Source of the DNA: Mustelus asterias
Lineage: Eukaryota
Assembly: GCF_964213995.1 (NCBI RefSeq)
Contig: NC_135827.1
Span: 23,622,001 to 23,686,000 of the forward strand
Length of the DNA: 64,000 nucleotides
Direction: 5' to 3'
Positions 11,069 through 62,354 of the stretch are shown one piece after another. Position 1 is the first letter of the stretch, and every line of letters begins with the position of its first letter. Position numbers and translations under genes: made by a program. The notes beneath the pieces are model-generated. The model searched no databases. It was not told where the DNA came from and saw only the letters and a program-made list of their open reading frames with translations.

Positions 11069-11414
11069 GGGCGGCACGGTAGCACAGTGGTTAGCACTGC
11101 TGCTTCACAGCTCCAGGGTCCCGGGTTCGATTCCCGGCTCGGGTCACTGTCTGTGTGGAGTTTGCACATTCTCCTTGTGTCTGCGTGGGTTTCCTCCGGG
11201 TGCTCCGGTTTCCTCCCACAGTCCAAAGATGTGCGGGTTAGGTTGATTGGCCAGGTTAAAAAATTGCCCCTTAGAGTCCTGGGATGTGTAGGTTAGAGGG
11301 ATTAGCGGGTAAAATATGTGGGGGTAGGGCCTGGGTGGGATTGTGGTCGGTGCAGACTCGATGGGCCGAATGGCCTCCTTCTGCACTGTAGGGTTTCTAT
11401 GATCTATGATTCTA
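11069..11414 (+). mobile_element. HE1-type SINE, full length, young
   Basis: tRNA-like head GGGCGGCACGGTAGCACAGTGGTTAGCAC...GGTTCGATTCC (A and B boxes), conserved body, CR1-like tail gggccgaatggcctccttctgcactgta plus (ttctatga)n. Confidence 0.93.
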
Positions 11415-19929: not shown

Positions 19930-21325
19930 ACAACCAGCTGACTAAAAGGACACCATAATATATGAGACAACTGGATGTCAAAGATGCTCAGTTGTGTTCT
20001 TCTCACTTGGTGAAGCCCATATTGCAGCAGGTTTGATCCTGACTTGTGGATCTCACATCAAGATCCCAGCAAGGTATGGAGCTGCTGTTCAGTTTATGCC
20101 ATTTACCATTGGCTGCAGTCAGAGGGAGGGAGGTGGATGCCTCCCAAGTGGCAGAGCTGGTGGAGGGCAGTCAATCTGTGACTCCGAACCTCCATCCTCC
20201 CGGGTGAATGGTCATGGCTAACTAGGGATCATGCGGTTAGTCTTTCTATGCTTCCAAGGTGTCTTTTGTAGAGTTTTGAGGGTAGTGGAGTGTAAAGATT
20301 CCCAGGATGTCTTTTACTTGGATGGGGGTGGGTGGGGATGTTATGTCTAGACAGAGGACAGCCAAAGGGCTTAGCATTAGCCTGCTGGCTTTGAGATGGA
20401 GGGAAACCTGTAAAGGACATGCTGACTTAATGTATCACTTCAATTTGTTCACACGTCCACTGATGTTGCAGGCAACCCTGTCTTGGTAATGGCTCCTCAT
20501 CCAGATGAGGAGAAGGTGGGCCCATTGCTTGTTGTCACAGGGCCAGGAGAAGCAAGAGCCTGAGCAGCAAGAGACAGTTTACCCTGTAAGGACATGAGGC
20601 TGGTGAACATTGATATCTGCAATTGCAAGCATTGGTTTGACCAGAGGTGCAGCGGCAGCCATTTTCCTATCTAGAGATGAGCAGAAGGCGCCCTATGAAG
20701 TTGCTCACACCTGTGAACTTCTCCAGTACAATTTTTGGCCACAAAGACTCTGCAGGAGATTTTTTGGTACCTTTCAGTACTTTAATTCTAATGAAAAAAA
20801 ATTTCAAATTAAGTCCAATCTTGGTCCCCACATGAGGGACAAACAAAATCCAAGCTGACAAGACATTGCATCCCATCTTGGGCTCGATCAAACAAGATCC
20901 AAGCTGACAGGATGAGGCATTGCACCCCCTCCCGGGCTTGATCTAACGGTTCATCTTGGCCAAAAGGCCCAGATGGCTTTGAAAACTTGCATCAGGTAAA
21001 GCCTCAGTTTAACCTCATTGGCTACCCTGATCCTTTCCTCTACCCTAGCTTAGACAACCAACGAGGGCAGGCATCAGCACACTCGGAGTGCAATGGGATA
21101 GCCTCATCCTGGGAGATCAACCTGCCTGATCATTGACTCTCCCTTGTGTGGAGCTCCTGGCTTTAAAAGTGGCACCATGACCTTCAGCCCTCTGAGGTAA
21201 CGTCGTAACGTGACTTCCTGCCTGCCCCAACACAAAGATCGTGCAAGTTCACCCACCCTATCATCCAGAAGGAATCAATCTGACCACCCTGCCGACCACT
21301 GGAGTCCACAATGGAAAATTTCATG
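19930..21325 (+). mobile_element. Possible highly decayed PIF/Harbinger-like element with transposase traces
   Basis: GC-richer block. Weak peptide traces QRQPFSYLEMS (~20650) and HQHTRS (~21080) recall HARBI1-like transposases; the block ends near tggaaaatttcatgc. Confidence 0.3.
20795..20978 (-). mobile_element. Short element headed by a U2 snRNA 5' fragment, copy 2, with an internal ~55 bp tandem duplication
   Basis: The reverse complement of 20950-20977 is GCCATCTGGGCCTTTTGGCCAAGATGAA (diverged U2 5' end). The body tccaatcttggtccccacatgagggacaaacaaaatccaagctgacaaga matches 16784-16834. Confidence 0.65.
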
Positions 21326-23140: not shown

Positions 23141-23154
23141 CACATAGCGTTTCA

Positions 23155-23391
23155 ACACAAAGACAGAAAAGTGCTGGAAAATCTCAGCAGGTCTGACAGC
23201 ATCTCTGGAGAGACAGTAGAACCAACGTTTCGCGTCCAGATGACCCTTCGTCAGAGCTCTGATGAAGGATAATCTGGACTCGAAACATTGGGTCTATTCT
23301 CTCTCCACAGATGCTGTCAGACCTGCTGAGATTTTCCAGCCTTTTTCTGTTTTTGCTTCAGACTCCAGCATCCACAGTAATTTGCGTTTAT
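23155..23391 (+). mobile_element. Palindromic PLE-derived mini-element, family A, with hammerhead cores
   Basis: Inverted arms centred on cagagctctg (23252-23261); unique 3' tail; TSD-like ccacatag(cg/tt)tttca at 23140 and 23392. Confidence 0.88.
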
Positions 23392-43324: not shown

Positions 43325-43672
43325 GGGCGGCACGGCAGCACAGTGGTTAGCACTGCTGCTTCACAGCTCCAGGGTCCCGGGTTCGATTCCCGGCTCGGGT
43401 CACTGTCTGTGTGGAGTTTGCACATTCTCCTCGTGTCTGCGTGGGTTTCCTCCGGGTGCTCCGGTTTCCTCCCACAGTCCAAAGATGTCCGGGTTAGGTT
43501 GATTGGCCAGGTTAAAAAAAAAAAATTGCCCCTTAGTGTCCTGGGATGTGTAGGTTAGAGGGATTAGCGGGTAAATATGTGGGGGTAGGGCCTGGGTGGG
43601 ATTGTGGTCGGTGCAGACTCGATGGGCCGAATGGCCTCCTTCTGCACTGTAGGGTTTCTATGATTTCTATGA
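43325..43672 (+). mobile_element. HE1-type SINE, full length, young
   Basis: Nearly identical to 11069-11414. Confidence 0.94.
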
Positions 43673-44073
43673 GATGCATTCTTTGTCATAGTAAGACAAA
43701 TAAGATTATTAGCAGCATACTCCAATGAGTACTGTTTAGCATTCAGAAATTACTGTCAGCAGAGATGCTTAGTGCTGCTCAACTGAAAGCACTCTGTTGC
43801 CTTGGGAGCTTCTAAAACTTTAACAGGAGAAATAATTGTTTTCCAGTGGTTGTCCCAGGTGTGGCTACTTTCCAAAATAGTATCTTCTGGTAATGGAAAC
43901 TGACTGTAGTGACTTAACTTTCATGTATAATTACAGAGAGGTGTAACACTTGACAATCCCTACGGAGACACTGCAATGTGGAAATTTTCACCTGTACTTT
44001 TTGCAAGTATTAAAAGGGTAGTATAATTATTGAGATGTGAAATGAAGTAAGGCAAGTTAAAGTCAAATGGCCT

Positions 44074-44176: not shown

Positions 44177-44439
44177 TATTTAATGGTTTCCTAAAATTAG
44201 AAGAGAACTACTCTCATCCACTCAAACCAGGTTTTCTTTTGGCCTTCTTCTCTAGGGTACCTTTGGTAGTCCTGACATTTTTTCCCCACTCCCAAATCTC
44301 TCTCATCAGCTTTGGTGTTTGTGCTCTGTTGTCCAATGCCTCCCTTTGCTTGTTCAGCTGCTTCATCCTGTCACTTCTGCCTGGAGAAAGTGATTGATGT
44401 ACAAATACGGCAGTTATTCCTATGGCGTATACAATGCAC

Positions 44440-44772
44440 GATGTGGAAATACCAGCGTTGGACTGGGATAAACACAGTAAGGAGTCTAACAACACCAGGT
44501 TAAAGTCCCAACAGGTTTATTTGGTAGCAAACGTCACTAGCTTTCGGAGCGCTGCTCCTTCGTCAGATGGAGTGGAAATCTGCTCTCAAACAGGGCACAG
44601 AGACACAAAATCAAGTTACAGAATACTGTAACTTGATTTTGTGTCTCTGTGCCCTGTTTGAGAGCAGATTTCCACTCCATCTGACGAAGGAGCAGCGCTC
44701 CGAAAGCTAGTGGCGTTTGCTACCAAATAAACCTGTTGGACTTTAACCTGGTGTTGTTAGACTCTTTACTGT
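44440..44772 (-). mobile_element. Palindromic PLE-derived mini-element, family B; 13-bp TSD
   Basis: ~150-bp near-perfect inverted arms centred at 44622-44625; a ~33-bp unique tail on the left; TSD GTATACAATGCAC at 44427-44439 and 44773-44785. Confidence 0.93.
44677..44713 (+). ncRNA. Minimal type-I hammerhead ribozyme motif (mirror copy at 44534-44570 on the minus strand)
   Basis: CCAU-CUGACGA-A-GGAGC(AGC)GCUCC-GAA-AGCU-A-GUGG: stem I CCAU/GUGG, 5-bp stem II, palindromic stem III AGCU. Confidence 0.7.
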
Positions 44773-45659
44773 GTATACAATGCACTCCAGTGCATCCACA
44801 CAACATACTGAATCTACATAGTTTTGTTCAGTTCGCCTTCTAAATGCTCATATAATTTGCCCTAAGTGCACATACAAGAGTTTCAAAGGGCAACAAAACC
44901 AATCCAACACCTAATTTGGTTGTGGGATCAAAAAGAGTACAAAATAGTACAATCTTCGAAACAAAAATAAGCTTCTACTTTGTACTAGCTTTTCATCCAA
45001 CCCGTAAAACACCAAAGCATGACAGTGATGCATGTTTTCAATGAAGTACTCTTTCAAAATGAAGCACTGATGAAATGAACAACATTAATAATTGATTATC
45101 AAGATACAGCGTAGGTAGTGAATGAAACCACATATTCATCGATATACTATGTGGTTGGGAATTCAGTTACTTCACAAAATAGATTTACATTAACTCTGTG
45201 CATTTGTGAATATCGATGGCCGTGGTTAGAACTTTAAAATATAAATGAGACCACTGGCAAGGGTGACCTGATGAATTGTATTTTGTTTAGACTATAGGAA
45301 GGCAGGTTTATGCTTGGTGGTGATTCAGTGTGTCAGTGAGGCTGGATCTTGTGGTAAGTGGCAAAGCAACAGTGGTTAACCTTGAGACCTAGTGATCACT
45401 GGTGCGGATTTCCCCTTTCCCAACGTCAGTTTGTTTCTGGTGCCAAGCCAAGGGAATCTCCAGGTGCCCAACAACAGTGATGTCATCAAATGGGGCAAGC
45501 ATTCAGTTACATTGAAGTTTTCTCTCAGACAACCAACTGTGAAATTAAAACCATTGAATCCTTTCACATCTATTTTTAACATTTTTAAGAGTAAAATAGA
45601 TGATTGGGGGAAACCTGACTGAAGGGTGATGAGAACATCCCCATAAATTAACCCTCCCA

Positions 45660-47545: not shown

Positions 47546-47650
47546 GAAATAGAAGGGAACCATGTTCATAGGTTTCCGTTGATTATAGTCTGCGAGGACC
47601 ATCAACAGTGCACTTTCTGCAGAAATGTAAAATCACTTCCAGAAACTTCT

Positions 47651-48083
47651 AAATAAAAGCAAATTACTGCGGATTCGGAAATCTGAAACCAGAAGAGAAA
47701 ATGCTGAAAAATCTCAGCAGGTCTGGCAGCATCTGTAAGGAGAGAAAAGAGCTGAAGTTTTGAGTCCAAATGACCCTTTGTCAAAGCTAAAAGGCATAGA
47801 AAGTGGGAGATATTTATACTGCAGGGTGAGGGAATGAAAGATGAGTCATAGCCACAAAACAAGGGGAAGGGCTTGCTAATGACAGTCCATAGAGAGAATA
47901 AAAGGTGTGAATGGCCAAGCGGCAGAGAAGCTGAAATCAGAGGATAAACTGTGACAGATGAAGATGTGAGGGGAGGGGGGGATGAGTGGGAGAGAGATAA
48001 AATGGAGAAAAAGGTGGAGAAAAGGTAAGGAAACAGGGGATAAAATAGGGGGGAAGAAAAATAAAGAAGTAAAAGGTAGAGAA
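47651..48083 (-). mobile_element. PLE 3' terminal region, family A-like
   Basis: aaataaaagcaaattactgcggat..ggaaatctgaaac...atctcagcaggtctggcagcatctg; degenerate hammerhead at ~47750-47790; TSD-like cag(a/c)aacttct at 47640-47650 and 48084-48094. Confidence 0.8.
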
Positions 48084-49409: not shown

Positions 49410-49620
49410 AGCTAGAAAATCTCAGCCGGTCTGACAGCATCGGTGGAGATAGAATAGAGCCAACATTTCAAGTTTGGATGATGCTTCATCAGAGCCTAGT
49501 CATCCAGACTCGAAACTTTGGCTCTACTCTCTCTCCACAGATGCTGTTAGAGTTGCTGAGATTTTCCAGCATTTTCTGTTTTTGTTTCAGATTCCAGCAT
49601 CCGCAGTATTTTGCTTTTAA
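49410..49620 (+). mobile_element. Palindromic PLE-derived mini-element, family A; 11-bp TSD
   Basis: Inverted arms around ~49495; TSD CTTAAATGCTT at 49399-49409 and 49621-49631. Confidence 0.88.
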
Positions 49621-51707: not shown

Positions 51708-51816
51708 CTAGATCAGCGCTGATGAAGAGTCATCCAGAGTTGAAACGTTGGCATTATTCTCTCTCCACAGATGCTATCAGATCTGCTGAGATTTTCCAGC
51801 ATTTTCCGATTTTTTT
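51708..51816 (+). mobile_element. Single-arm PLE mini-insertion, family A; 15-bp TSD
   Basis: ctgatgaagagtcatccagagttgaaacgtt core; TSD GTAGGTCAT(A/G)ATTGG at 51693-51707 and 51817-51831. Confidence 0.85.
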
Positions 51817-52403
51817 GTAGGTCATGATTGGAATTATACAGTGGAAAACTGAGGGATGGTAAGGGAGGGGGGGAAGAAGCAAGTGGTGAGGGGAGAAGCG
51901 AGGCAGTGCAAATCCACCTTGCTAAGCTGTTGGTGAGGATTCCCACACACAGCAATGGAGGACCTTTTATATATAGGTGCTAAGGGCAGATGATGTGGGA
52001 TTACTACTGCAGAGGCCACAGAAATAAAGTATATATATGCTTGAGGTAAGAGCAATAGCATGTAAGTGAGTGAGCGAAGCATTGGGATTAGTTTTGGATT
52101 CCTCTAGGAAGGAGCCACCACAAACGCACTGTCCCAAAGAGCCTCTGACCTAGGTGTAAGCTCCTCCCTACAGTTCCATGGATCTTTTGTTAATTCCTTG
52201 CATTTGAATTTGAGAACAACATTGGCAGATAGCTGAGAATGGTGATAGAATGACGTGTGAGGCCCAAGGAACTGCTGTCTGTTTAAATTGATAAGTGTAA
52301 CTTCAATAAATAAATAAAACAGGAGCTGTCTGGATGTGAATTTGTTATCACATTATAATTATTATGATAACTAGATAACATAAACACTGTTGCTTAATAT
52401 TTA

Positions 52404-52657
52404 CAGTAAGAAGTCTCACAACACCAGGTTAAAGGCCAACAGGTTTATTTGGTAGCAAATACCATAAGCTTTCGGAGCGCTGCCCCTTCGTCAGATGGAG
52501 TGGTTATCTGTTCTCTGATAACCACTCCATCTGACGAAGGGACAGCGCTCCGAAAGCTTATGGTATTTGCTACCAAATAAACCTGTTGGACTTTAACCTG
52601 GTGTTGTGAGACTTCTTACTGTGCTTACCCCAGTCCAACGCCGGCATCTCCACATCA
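52404..52657 (+). mobile_element. Palindromic PLE-derived mini-element, family B; 13-bp TSD
   Basis: ~105-bp inverted arms centred at ~52512; unique tail on the right; TSD TGCTTAATATTTA at 52391-52403 and 52658-52670. Confidence 0.93.
52527..52563 (+). ncRNA. Minimal hammerhead ribozyme motif (mirror copy at 52462-52498 on the minus strand)
   Basis: CCAU-CUGACGA-A-GGGAC(AGC)GCUCC-GAA-AGCU-U-AUGG; stem I CCAU/AUGG. The minus copy has the better stem II, GGGGC/GCUCC. Confidence 0.65.
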
Positions 52658-52719
52658 TGCTTAATATTTAGCCACTGCTCTAAAAGCCAATACATTAGGA
52701 TTTAAATCATTTGTTAGCA

Positions 52720-54717: not shown

Positions 54718-54812
54718 GGAGCTCTGACGGAGGGTAATCCAGACTCAAAACGTTGGCTCTATTCTCTCTCCTCAGATGTCGTCAGAACTGTTGAGATTTT
54801 CTGTTTGTGTTA
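54718..54812 (+). mobile_element. Single-arm PLE mini-insertion, family A, degenerate core
   Basis: gagctctgacggagggtaatccagactcaaaacgttggctctattctctctcc.cagatg. Confidence 0.78.
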
Positions 54813-60598: not shown

Positions 60599-61601
60599 GG
60601 ATGTTTCTATGTTTCTAAAACACTTTTTTAAAACCGTGTTGATTGGTCGTGTATGGGATTCTAATAATTTCCCTTCAAACTTAAAGCTTATGTACAACTT
60701 ATGAACAAAGGAGAATTATAAATTCACAGCATGAGATAACATATTATAAACTTAATGTTGCTATCACTAAGAAATCTACAAATTGACGCACAAATGGAAA
60801 ACTTGGGCTGCAGTATGTCCTTTAATAATGGCACCAATTTAATATAATTTTGCTTTGCTTCAGCGTTTGCATTGATTTAGTGATGTGTTTTCATACTTGA
60901 CATTTAATCCATTGAAAATTCTGTAGGGATTTTGTGTTCCTTTAGAATCCCAATTTTCAGACTGTCTAATGTTACACCATTTAATCATGTTTTCTTTTGT
61001 GGTCAGGTTACATAGTTAAACCACGTACAATTATATTAATTTGGAAAAAGAATACCTTGCCGTTCTCAGGTTTTGTGTCAGAAGGTACACTGTGATAAGT
61101 TATTTTACGCAAGTGCATTAAATTTAGCAGATGTTCAAAATTTAGCTTCAGTTTAGGTCAGTCAAAGACTTGCCTTTTTGGGCCTCCATTTGCCTCAGTG
61201 CCAGCAGGCGGCCTCGCACCCCACCAATTAAATCTGCCTGAAGACGGCCAGCTGCTTCTTTTGCCCCAAACTGAGAGCAGACTTGACCTTTCTGAACAAG
61301 TACTCAACCATGGATGTACTTGCCTCAGGTGTTCAACTCTGTTGTGATGCTTTTAACATTTTCTTTAAAAAAAACTGGAAGAATAAATTGAATCTTCATA
61401 TTCTTGGCAAAGTGTTACAGAACCTATTTTCCACCCTTGCAAATTACTTTTTTCTTGATTAATTTGTGTTCACAAATGTGAAGCAGAGACCACGGATTAA
61501 TGTGGAGAAAACTGTTTGTCGTGCATTGTCAAAATCTGCTGCGTCTTGAATACCAGAGGTAATTTATTACCGAAATGTTTCGACAAAGCCCGAATTTTGA
61601 G

Positions 61602-61830
61602 GATAAAAGCAAAACACTGCGGATGCTGGAATCTGAAACATAAACAGAAAATGCTGGTAAATCTCAGCAGGTCTGACAGCATCTGTGGAGGGGAAAAGAG
61701 CCAACGTTCAAGACTAGATTATCCTTTGTCAGTTCTGACGAAGGGCCATCTGGACTTGAAATGTTGGCTCTATTCTCTCTCCAGAGGTGCTGTCAGACCT
61801 GCTGAGATTTTCCAGCATTTTCTGTTCTGG
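61602..61830 (-). mobile_element. Palindromic PLE-derived mini-element, family A
   Basis: Arms centred at gtcagttctgac (~61733); unique tail on the left; possible 7-bp TSD ttttgag (61595, 61831). Confidence 0.85.
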
Positions 61831-62354
61831 TTTTGAGAAATTCGGAAGGTGTGGTGGCAGCTAGTTAGACGGCCAGATCCATTTTCAAGACTGAACCTCA
61901 TTAGCAAAGAACTGAACTCTATGCAGAAAGGGGAGACCTGCAGCCACTGGAGTTTAAAGCAGTCTAGCCGGCCTCTGGGCCTGCAAGAAGTACGGGTGCT
62001 GGAGTGTGTCCATTTTCGGGGAGAAGAAAACCTTGTACAGCAGGCAGCCCAAGTTGTTTTTGTGGAGATCTGAAAGATATGCCTTCTCCTTTTGGCCCCC
62101 AGTTGAATTAACAGTGACCAACTGGGCTCCTCTTCAGCTAAGTCCACCCCTGCAATGGTGCAGAGTATACACAGCCTCATCCTCTGCCTGGTTGAATCTT
62201 AGTATGAGAGTCGGGATCCTATGCATGTCCTGCTGGATTTGTAGGCTGAAGGGGCCTCTTGTTTGACTCGAGCATGCATTCCAGTGGTATGTTATTGGGG
62301 AAATTGCATTGGCCATACTAAATGTGAGAATGTAGTAGAAGGCCCAGAATAATT

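What the first reader, a model, noticed from the sequence alone, without database searches (positions are those of the whole stretch)
44427..44785. Fold-back mini-retroelement carrying hammerhead ribozyme cores on both strands (family B, copy 1)
Seen: a 333-bp insertion bounded by a perfect 13-bp TSD. It is a ~300-bp near-perfect palindrome plus a ~33-bp unique tail. Each arm holds CCAU-CUGACGA(A)-stemII-GAA-AGCU-A-GUG(G/A), with a stem III so short (palindromic AGCU) that it can only form in a dimer. Known: Penelope-like elements carry minimal type-I hammerheads in their pseudo-LTRs, minimal hammerheads cleave as dimers, and PLE insertions often have inverted ends plus a short tail. Inference: whichever strand is transcribed, the RNA contains one hammerhead plus its antisense copy, so it should form a long dsRNA hairpin that sequesters the ribozyme. 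That makes it a self-silenced ribozyme cassette and a likely ADAR/Dicer substrate in a host intron.
Basis: partly seen in the sequence, partly recalled or inferred. Interest (0 to 1): 0.7.

Follow-up and report, generated by a model that had tools for sequence, protein, structure and literature searches.

The report
Folded-back stub of a Penelope retrotransposon
This 333-base palindrome is a short back-to-back insertion of the end of an abundant Penelope-type jumping gene, a known layout, likely copied from uncut RNA; a sister subfamily has an excess of copies ending at the ribozyme's predicted cut site, which likely records occasional cutting in the germ line.

Summary
In detail: exact 13-bp target duplication, 148-bp arms with 3 differences, a 34-bp tail, and a minimal type-I hammerhead on each strand. 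It is not a discrete mini-element. It is the 3' pseudo-LTR end of an RT + GIY-YIG Penelope-like element (Neptune-type linker), present in thousands of arms. In 69 consecutive loci, 38 are fold-backs of 96-1,364 bp with different centres; 34 of 38 carry the tail on one arm; only 12 of 34 keep both ribozyme cores. This layout is published. The hairpin would bury the ribozyme, but as a by-product; no host gene or expression was shown. This copy starts about 85-89 nt upstream of the cut, so it came from uncut RNA. One extra result: in a sister subfamily 957 arms end at the predicted cut, against 363, 362, 299 and 54 at offsets -3, -5, +2 and +7. The excess is about 2-fold in the focal subfamily and undetectable in an older family. 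That suggests cutting of a minority of templates in vivo. The scan has reported such stubs, and this excess, on other genomes, with mixed verdicts.

The parts
44427..44439 (.). left copy of 13-bp target-site duplication
44440..44473 (-). 34-nt PLE tail; in the near-full copy L031 it runs directly into the ORF start codon
   Evidence: 30 of 34 identical
44474..44625 (-). tail-bearing arm: last 152 nt of the pseudo-LTR, including the 4 loop bases
44534..44570 (-). minimal type-I hammerhead of the left arm; stem I reduced to 3 bp; predicted cut between 44538 and 44537
44619..44628 (.). fold-back centre: a 3-bp inverted repeat around a 4-nt loop that is native to the parent subfamily (10-nt overlap of the two arms)
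44626..44772 (+). tailless arm: last 147 nt of the pseudo-LTR
44677..44713 (+). minimal type-I hammerhead of the right arm (4-bp stem I, bulged A, 5-bp stem II with G10.1-C11.1, palindromic AGCU); predicted cut after 44709
44726..44731 (+). AATAAA hexamer in the pseudo-LTR (possible poly(A) signal; untested)
44773..44785 (.). right copy of 13-bp target-site duplication
52391..52670 (.). second, independent fold-back of a sister subfamily: 254 bp, different centre, tail on one arm, 13-bp target duplication

Best explanation
This is a dead, heavily 5'-truncated, head-to-head insertion of the pseudo-LTR end of an endonuclease-bearing Penelope-like retrotransposon, likely made when the element's enzyme nicked the target 13 bases apart, copied about 190 bases of an uncut RNA starting at the tail, and the new DNA strand likely folded back on a 3-bp inverted repeat to make the second, tailless arm. 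Shown: the family identity, the RT + GIY-YIG parent, variable centres, one-sided tail, 12-14-bp target duplications, arm-length symmetry, the native micro-hairpin at this centre, and stem covariation of the hammerhead. Inferred: target-primed reverse transcription from two start sites 34 nt apart (by analogy with Frangieh 2024), snap-back, and uncut template (the arms begin 85-89 nt upstream of the cut). The hammerhead belongs to the parent's life cycle, not to this stub; it likely cuts a minority of templates with protein help, which would explain the excess of sister-subfamily arms ending at the cut.
For: Arm matches 48 scored places; 3,374 exact 32-mer pseudo-LTR ends. L031 has the textbook layout: inverted truncated copy with tail / pLTR-hammerhead-tail-ATG / ORF / tailless pLTR; RVT_1 E 6.8e-10, GIY-YIG E 6e-4, below the curated cut-off; 62% identity to an 881-aa RT protein. 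The closest relatives of the focal arm (L002, L004, L005) run upstream into the same ORF end. Of 69 consecutive loci, 38 fold back, 34 of 38 have one tail, 24 of 34 have a 12-14-bp duplication, total lengths 96-1,364. 32 of 38 short pairs have arms within 20 nt of each other against 13.9 under permutation, 0 of 20,000. Stem I pair 2.1-1.1 is C-G 114, U-G 31, U-A 23 of 172 descriptor hits. The layout and self-priming idea are in PMC3846280 and PMC8557442. Cut-site excess: 957 vs 363, 362, 299, 54; 27 of 30 such loci are fold-backs, 24 with a duplication of 8 bp or more, 19 different junction strings, and the arm ending at the cut bears the tail in 23 of 27 (p 3e-4).
Against: Junction microhomology of 3 nt or more is not enriched family-wide (11 of 38 against 27% in simulated blunt joins, where 3 of 60 reached 10 nt or more), so snap-back at this centre is suggestive only. 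In 4 of 27 cut-site fold-backs the tail is on the shorter arm, and 12 of 58 pairs differ in arm length by more than 100 nt; a single snap-back cDNA does not explain these. The cut-site excess is weak in the focal subfamily (20 vs 8 and 16, p 0.02-0.04) and not seen in family A (2 of 53 junctions at the cut, 5 if two common point variants are allowed). 0 of 20 incidental sister-subfamily arms end at the cut. No intact ORF copy was recovered. The empty site was not seen.
Confidence: 0.85

Rival explanations
1. Same element, but the two arms are two separate cDNAs primed on the two nicked strands by a dimeric enzyme, one from each start site, then joined head to head; similar lengths come from coupled synthesis.
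For: The anole PLE protein cleaves and extends both strands, uses two start sites and is predicted to be a dimer (PMC11167929). Strongly asymmetric pairs exist (12 of 58 differ by more than 100 nt), the tail can sit on the shorter arm (4 of 27), 3 of 38 fold-backs have two tails, and microhomology is not enriched.
Against: Near-exact symmetry in 32 of 38 short pairs; this centre sits on a native micro-hairpin; the arm ending at the cut carries the tail in 23 of 27.
Confidence: 0.35
2. A fixed non-autonomous palindromic mini-element, mobilised as a unit, whose antisense arm silences its ribozyme.
For: The hairpin does bury the ribozyme in silico. Some junction strings recur (8 of 30 cut-site loci share one).
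Against: Centres span 29-193 nt from the arm end in 38 short pairs; the four closest relatives examined read through this centre; 22 of 34 lack one or both cores; the recurrent junction carries the tail on either arm.
Confidence: 0.04
3. The cut-site excess in the sister subfamily comes from a sequence feature (the six-base palindrome next to the site, an RT stop, hairpin-tip trimming or a transcription start), not from ribozyme cleavage.
For: A self-complementary hexamer begins one base upstream of the site in that subfamily; the excess is weaker where it is absent and not seen in family A; offsets -2, -1, +1 and +3 to +6 were not counted; Frangieh 2024 found no RNA reads ending at the cut. 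Several earlier scan notes favour this reading.
Against: The offset-0 filter excludes fold-backs that keep the palindrome; trimming from a palindrome centred at +3 predicts +2 at least as high as 0, yet +2 is 299 against 957; junctions fall to about 81 (scaled) at +7; most other arm starts cluster 22-49 nt upstream, where a transcription start could lie (19 of 38 centres).
Confidence: 0.4
4. Assembly artefact (a fold-back chimeric read).
For: Long palindromes are a known artefact of long reads (recalled). Reads were not examined.
Against: Exact target duplication, three differences between arms, a one-sided family tail, and the same anatomy in 34 of 69 loci.
Confidence: 0.01

Closest known systems
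EN+ Penelope-like element insertions with inverted 5'-truncated pLTR and one-sided tail (Adineta vaga Pen2/Pen2a, PMC3846280; general scheme in PMC8557442; D. virilis Penelope 34-bp repeat, PMC2377424)
   Same: Head-to-head inverted pLTR, 30-40-nt tail on one end (34 here), target duplication, palindrome at the inverted junction, tail next to the ORF start.
   Different: Here both arms are truncated inside the pLTR, so no ORF remains; duplications are mostly 12-14 bp against the 8-10 bp quoted for A. vaga; copy number is in the tens of thousands of arms.
Neptune (or Nematis) clade of C-terminal GIY-YIG PLEs
   Same: [quoted passage not shown]
   Different: No tree was built, so Neptune against Nematis is not resolved; no microsatellite preference is evident (2 of 34 duplications are TA repeats).
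Minimal type-I hammerheads of metazoan PLEs (Cervera and de la Pena 2014, PMC4209133)
   Same: 4-bp stem I, extra base after A9, G10.1-C11.1, palindromic 15.2-16.2, no stem III; that paper also notes pairs 100-700 bp apart on opposite strands, read as truncated PLEs.
   Different: Stem II is 5-6 bp rather than 7-8; activity was not tested here; no shark example appeared in the parts read.
Non-LTR retrozymes (PMC7229834; bioRxiv 10.64898/2026.07.22.740005)
   Same: Non-coding, type-I hammerhead, derived from PLE pLTRs.
   Different: Retrozymes are head-to-tail repeats of a fixed unit; this is a head-to-head pair with a variable centre and cannot yield a unit-length circle.
Poseidon of Anolis carolinensis in vitro (PMC11167929)
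   Same: Tail explained by two RT start sites; hammerhead near the pLTR-ORF junction; uncut RNA is the main template.
   Different: There the ORF starts inside the hammerhead; here the start codon follows the tail, 97 nt past the cut, and some genomic copies end at the cut.

Membership tests
EN+ Penelope-like element (truncated inverted copy) | Linked single ORF with RT and C-terminal GIY-YIG | tested here: met
   L031/L032: RVT_1 E 6.8e-10; GIY-YIG E 6e-4, under the curated cut-off but with the motif visible; closest relatives of the focal arm reach the same ORF end. All copies seen are broken.
EN+ Penelope-like element (truncated inverted copy) | pLTR at both ORF ends, with an adjacent inverted 5'-truncated copy | tested here: met
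   L031 anatomy
EN+ Penelope-like element (truncated inverted copy) | 30-40-nt tail on one end | tested here: met
   34 nt; one-sided in 34 of 38 fold-backs
EN+ Penelope-like element (truncated inverted copy) | Variable target duplication and variable 5' truncation | tested here: met
   0-20 bp, 24 of 34 at 12-14; total 96-1,364 bp
Neptune clade | CX2-5CxxC linker motif plus CCHH | tested here: met
   CX4CxxC upstream of GIY-YIG and two cysteines within it (definition); shared with Nematis
Neptune clade | Placement in the Neptune clade of an RT tree | not testable with these tools
   No named Repbase references were held
Minimal type-I hammerhead | Core CUGANGA / GAA / UH, bulge after A9, G10.1-C11.1, palindromic 15-16 | tested here: met
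   Rfam models gave no hit
Minimal type-I hammerhead | Stems kept through compensatory change | tested here: met
   Pair 2.1-1.1 C-G/U-G/U-A in 168 of 172 hits; stem II of 5 bp or more in 146 of 172 across different sequences. Counts are copies, not events, and the scan fixed the core.
Minimal type-I hammerhead | Self-cleavage (dimer or protein-assisted) | not testable with these tools
   Indirect only: junction excess. The double-hammerhead fold (-19.7) gains nothing over two monomers (2 x -9.9) and loses to a non-catalytic dimer (-28.9).
Non-LTR retrozyme | Head-to-tail repeats of a fixed unit, each with a hammerhead | tested here: not met
   Head-to-head, variable length
Discrete palindromic non-autonomous element (MITE-like) | Fixed length and centre across copies | tested here: not met

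The most novel reading that the evidence does not exclude
The minimal hammerhead of this shark-type Penelope family cuts its RNA in the germ line, and thousands of insertions are DNA fossils of the 3' cleavage product: the enzyme runs off the cut end and folds back. That would be genome-scale evidence that metazoan minimal PLE hammerheads, nearly inactive in vitro, act in vivo on up to about a tenth of templates, and the per-subfamily height of the peak would be a read-out of ribozyme activity.
Probability: 0.55. Interest if true: 0.6.

Novelty: new member of a known kind. Interest (0 to 1): 0.33.

Why it matters
The stub itself is ordinary. Two family-level results bear on open questions about Penelope-like elements. 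First, whether minimal hammerheads ever cut in vivo is unresolved (weak in vitro, PMC4209133; protein-dependent, dispensable for insertion and unseen in RNA reads, PMC11167929); an excess of insertions ending at the cut makes this testable from DNA alone. Second, tight arm symmetry constrains how the inverted ends form. About half of the sampled insertions are near-perfect hairpins, so the genome holds thousands of potential double-stranded RNA sources, though none was shown to be transcribed.

Tried and rejected
(1) 'The two arms always differ at one C/T site' looked striking in the first 30 loci but came from querying with the rare allele: T is in 2 of 100 listed unbiased matches. Rejected. 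(2) Junction microhomology as a family-wide snap-back signature: not above the null; a first attempt failed for short pairs because other palindromes matched end to end. (3) Replicating the cut-site excess in family A: 90 of 951 matches examined, 37 were internal indels, 53 junctions, no peak; old and noisy, so weak either way. (4) A filter meant to enrich truncations in the focal subfamily instead returned a larger sister subfamily (62 of 100 listed rows read through). (5) Rfam: only generic hairpin (miRNA) matches below gathering score. (6) Host gene: no credible Pfam hit in 290 of 323 non-repeat ORFs of 48 aa or more (one weak repeat hit, E 0.005); short exons would be missed. (7) Sequencing runs: no RNA holder listed. 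(8) Isolated hammerhead folds are no more stable than shuffles (z -0.3 to +1.2). (9) No earlier finding near this place or by sequence. (10) The Terminon paper PMC5850863 was not held; it may discuss hammerhead cut sites at junctions.

Full report
OBSERVATION. The RNA fold is -300.8 kcal/mol, z = -38. Each arm holds a minimal type-I hammerhead motif; the + strand one spans 44677-44713 with a predicted cut after 44709, and the left one has lost a stem I pair. Rfam does not detect it. A second fold-back of a sister subfamily lies at 52391-52670 with another centre and its own 13-bp duplication.

WHAT IT IS. The arm is a genome-wide repeat: 48 scored matches, 3,374 exact matches to a 32-base end motif, and 25,024 matches to a looser pattern, of which 62 of 100 listed belong to a sister subfamily here called B3. 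Locus L031 shows the parent: an inverted 5'-truncated copy with tail, then pLTR-hammerhead-tail-ATG, an ORF broken by frameshifts and an inserted repeat, and a tailless pLTR. [quoted passage not shown] It is 62% identical to an unnamed 881-aa RT protein; short pieces match two shark gene models at 72-80%, in keeping with a cartilaginous fish host, which I did not identify further. The closest relatives of the focal arm (L002, L004, L005) continue upstream into the same ORF end, and B3 copies do too. The stop codon lies 310 nt upstream of the tailless end in L031, so the focal arms are only the distal half of the pLTR.

NOT A FIXED MINI-ELEMENT. I took the first 70 loci holding the exact end motif on contig C1 and dropped one duplicate. 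Of 69, 38 are fold-backs; 34 of 38 have the tail on one arm, 3 on both, 1 on neither; duplications are 12-14 bp in 24 of 34; total lengths run from 96 to 1,364 bp; only 12 of 34 carry the hammerhead core on both arms (one pair, L054, was mis-split by the script). The outer ends are fixed and the centre varies. This is the published anatomy of PLE insertions: an inverted 5'-truncated copy with a 30-40-bp tail at one end (PMC8557442), 9-10-bp duplications, junction palindromes read as self-priming, and small RNAs from Penelope copies (PMC3846280), inverted repeats of variable size (PMC2377424), and minimal hammerheads 100-700 bp apart on opposite strands read as truncated PLEs (PMC4209133).

HOW THE FOLD-BACK LIKELY FORMED. 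Among 38 short pairs, 32 have arms within 20 nt of each other against 13.9 expected under permutation (0 of 20,000; Spearman 0.57). The focal centre sits on a 3-bp inverted repeat with a 4-nt loop that is native to its subfamily, and the tail-bearing arm owns the loop. This fits a first cDNA, primed at a nick and started at the tail site, folding back on itself. Against it: microhomology of 3 nt or more is no commoner than in simulated joins (11 of 38 vs 27%), 12 of 58 pairs are asymmetric by over 100 nt, and the tail is sometimes on the shorter arm. A two-cDNA route by a dimeric enzyme, in line with the anole protein that extends both strands from two start sites (PMC11167929), remains a real rival and may operate alongside.

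THE RIBOZYME. Across 172 descriptor hits in the loci held, the first stem I pair is C-G (114), U-G (31) or U-A (23), and stem II keeps 5 bp or more in 146 with different sequences; the focal subfamily differs from the main one at several bases just upstream of the core, two of them pairing-neutral stem I changes, while individual copies decay mainly at CpG sites (the scan fixed parts of the core). So selection acted on master elements, not on stubs. The double-hammerhead fold has no energy advantage, which fits protein-assisted cleavage as reported for the anole element. The focal arms start 85-89 nt upstream of the cut, so this copy came from uncut RNA, as did most: 19 of 38 centres lie 22-49 nt upstream of it.

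AN EXCESS OF ENDS AT THE CUT. I counted genome-wide arms that follow the B3 sequence to offset k from the predicted cut and then mismatch at three bases. Counts: k = -5, 362; -3, 363; 0, 957; +2, 299; +7, 54 under a stricter filter, about 81 scaled. By eye, about 36, 35 and 1 of the first 100 rows at -5, -3 and 0 are read-through variants, giving about 232, 236 and 947, a 4-fold excess (2.6-fold uncorrected). The negative offsets also take in sister subfamilies. Of 30 offset-0 loci, 27 are fold-backs, 24 have a duplication of 8 bp or more, there are 19 different junction strings, and the arm ending at the cut bears the tail in 23 of 27. Scaled roughly by filter pass rate, the excess is about 2,000 arms against at least 15,000 that read through, at most about 13%; 0 of 20 incidental B3 arms end there. 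In the focal subfamily the counts are 22 (2 not junctions), 8 and 16 at offsets 0, -2 and +3, about 2-fold, p 0.02-0.04. In the older family A, whose pLTR sequence looks unrelated, 2 of 53 junctions (5 allowing two common variants) fall at the cut. Offsets -2, -1, +1 and +3 to +6 of B3 were not counted, so the peak is located only to within a few bases. A neighbouring six-base palindrome, an RT stop or a transcription start are not excluded, though palindrome-retaining folds cannot pass the offset-0 filter and +2 is lower than 0. I put cleavage at 0.55.

CONTEXT. No host exon was recognised in 290 of 323 non-repeat ORFs. Intron status, expression, editing and small RNAs are untested.

LITERATURE SEEN. 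PMC4209133 and PMC11167929: parts 1-2 of 4 (main text). PMC8557442, PMC3846280, PMC7229834, PMC2377424: passages. bioRxiv 10.64898/2026.07.22.740005: part 1 of 5 and passages. No supplements were read; those of PMC4209133 and PMC11167929 (Fig. S2 on read and copy ends) may bear on the cut-site claim. PMC5850863 was not held. Seven searches showed no paper reporting genomic 5' junctions at an EN+ PLE hammerhead cut; the library lacks most subscription papers. The scan's own notes (read after my counts were made) report such stubs in other genomes: two favour cleavage, five favour a palindrome or uncut template, one calls it unproven. They are unchecked and are not used as support.

VERDICT. A real feature and a new member of a known kind. 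The cassette idea is not supported. The family-level excess at the cut site is the part worth following. Interest 0.33.

Noticed in passing
window 23150-23390, 47650-47790, 49410-49620, 51710-51820, 54720-54800, 61600-61840: Older fold-backs or single arms of a second hammerhead-bearing repeat (family A, 80-85% alike), with a different-looking pLTR, palindromic ACGU core and its own stem I; likely another PLE family, parent not sought.
   Followed up: partly
L105-L164 (G000 C1): Subfamily B3 is far more abundant (about 15,000 or more arms) and homogeneous, with N7 = A, a 6-bp stem II and U17; many copies are long inverted pairs.
   Followed up: partly
L135-L164 junctions: After the cut-site end, junctions often add C, CC or a short stretch re-copied from a few bases downstream before the second arm, suggesting untemplated addition and template slippage at the RNA 5' end.
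   Followed up: partly
L031:6599-6632: The tail ends exactly at the ORF start codon; several tailed arms elsewhere keep 1-5 further bases of the ORF start.
   Followed up: partly
window 21054-21147 (-): Partial U1 snRNA match, 40.2 bits, E 1e-6, below the gathering score; likely a pseudogene fragment.
   Followed up: no
window 11076-11409, 43332-43675 and about 15 other places: A 330-bp interspersed repeat (likely a SINE) that also interrupts the parent ORF in L031.
   Followed up: no
P0004, P0005: Pieces of this element's protein are included in two annotated shark gene models (72% and 80% identity over 17-24% of the query); mis-annotation or exonisation.
   Followed up: no
rows: A recurrent 7-9-nt deletion between two short direct repeats removes the cleavage site in many arms (roughly a quarter of 100 listed rows, by eye); a ribozyme-dead sublineage or a deletion hot spot.
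   Followed up: no
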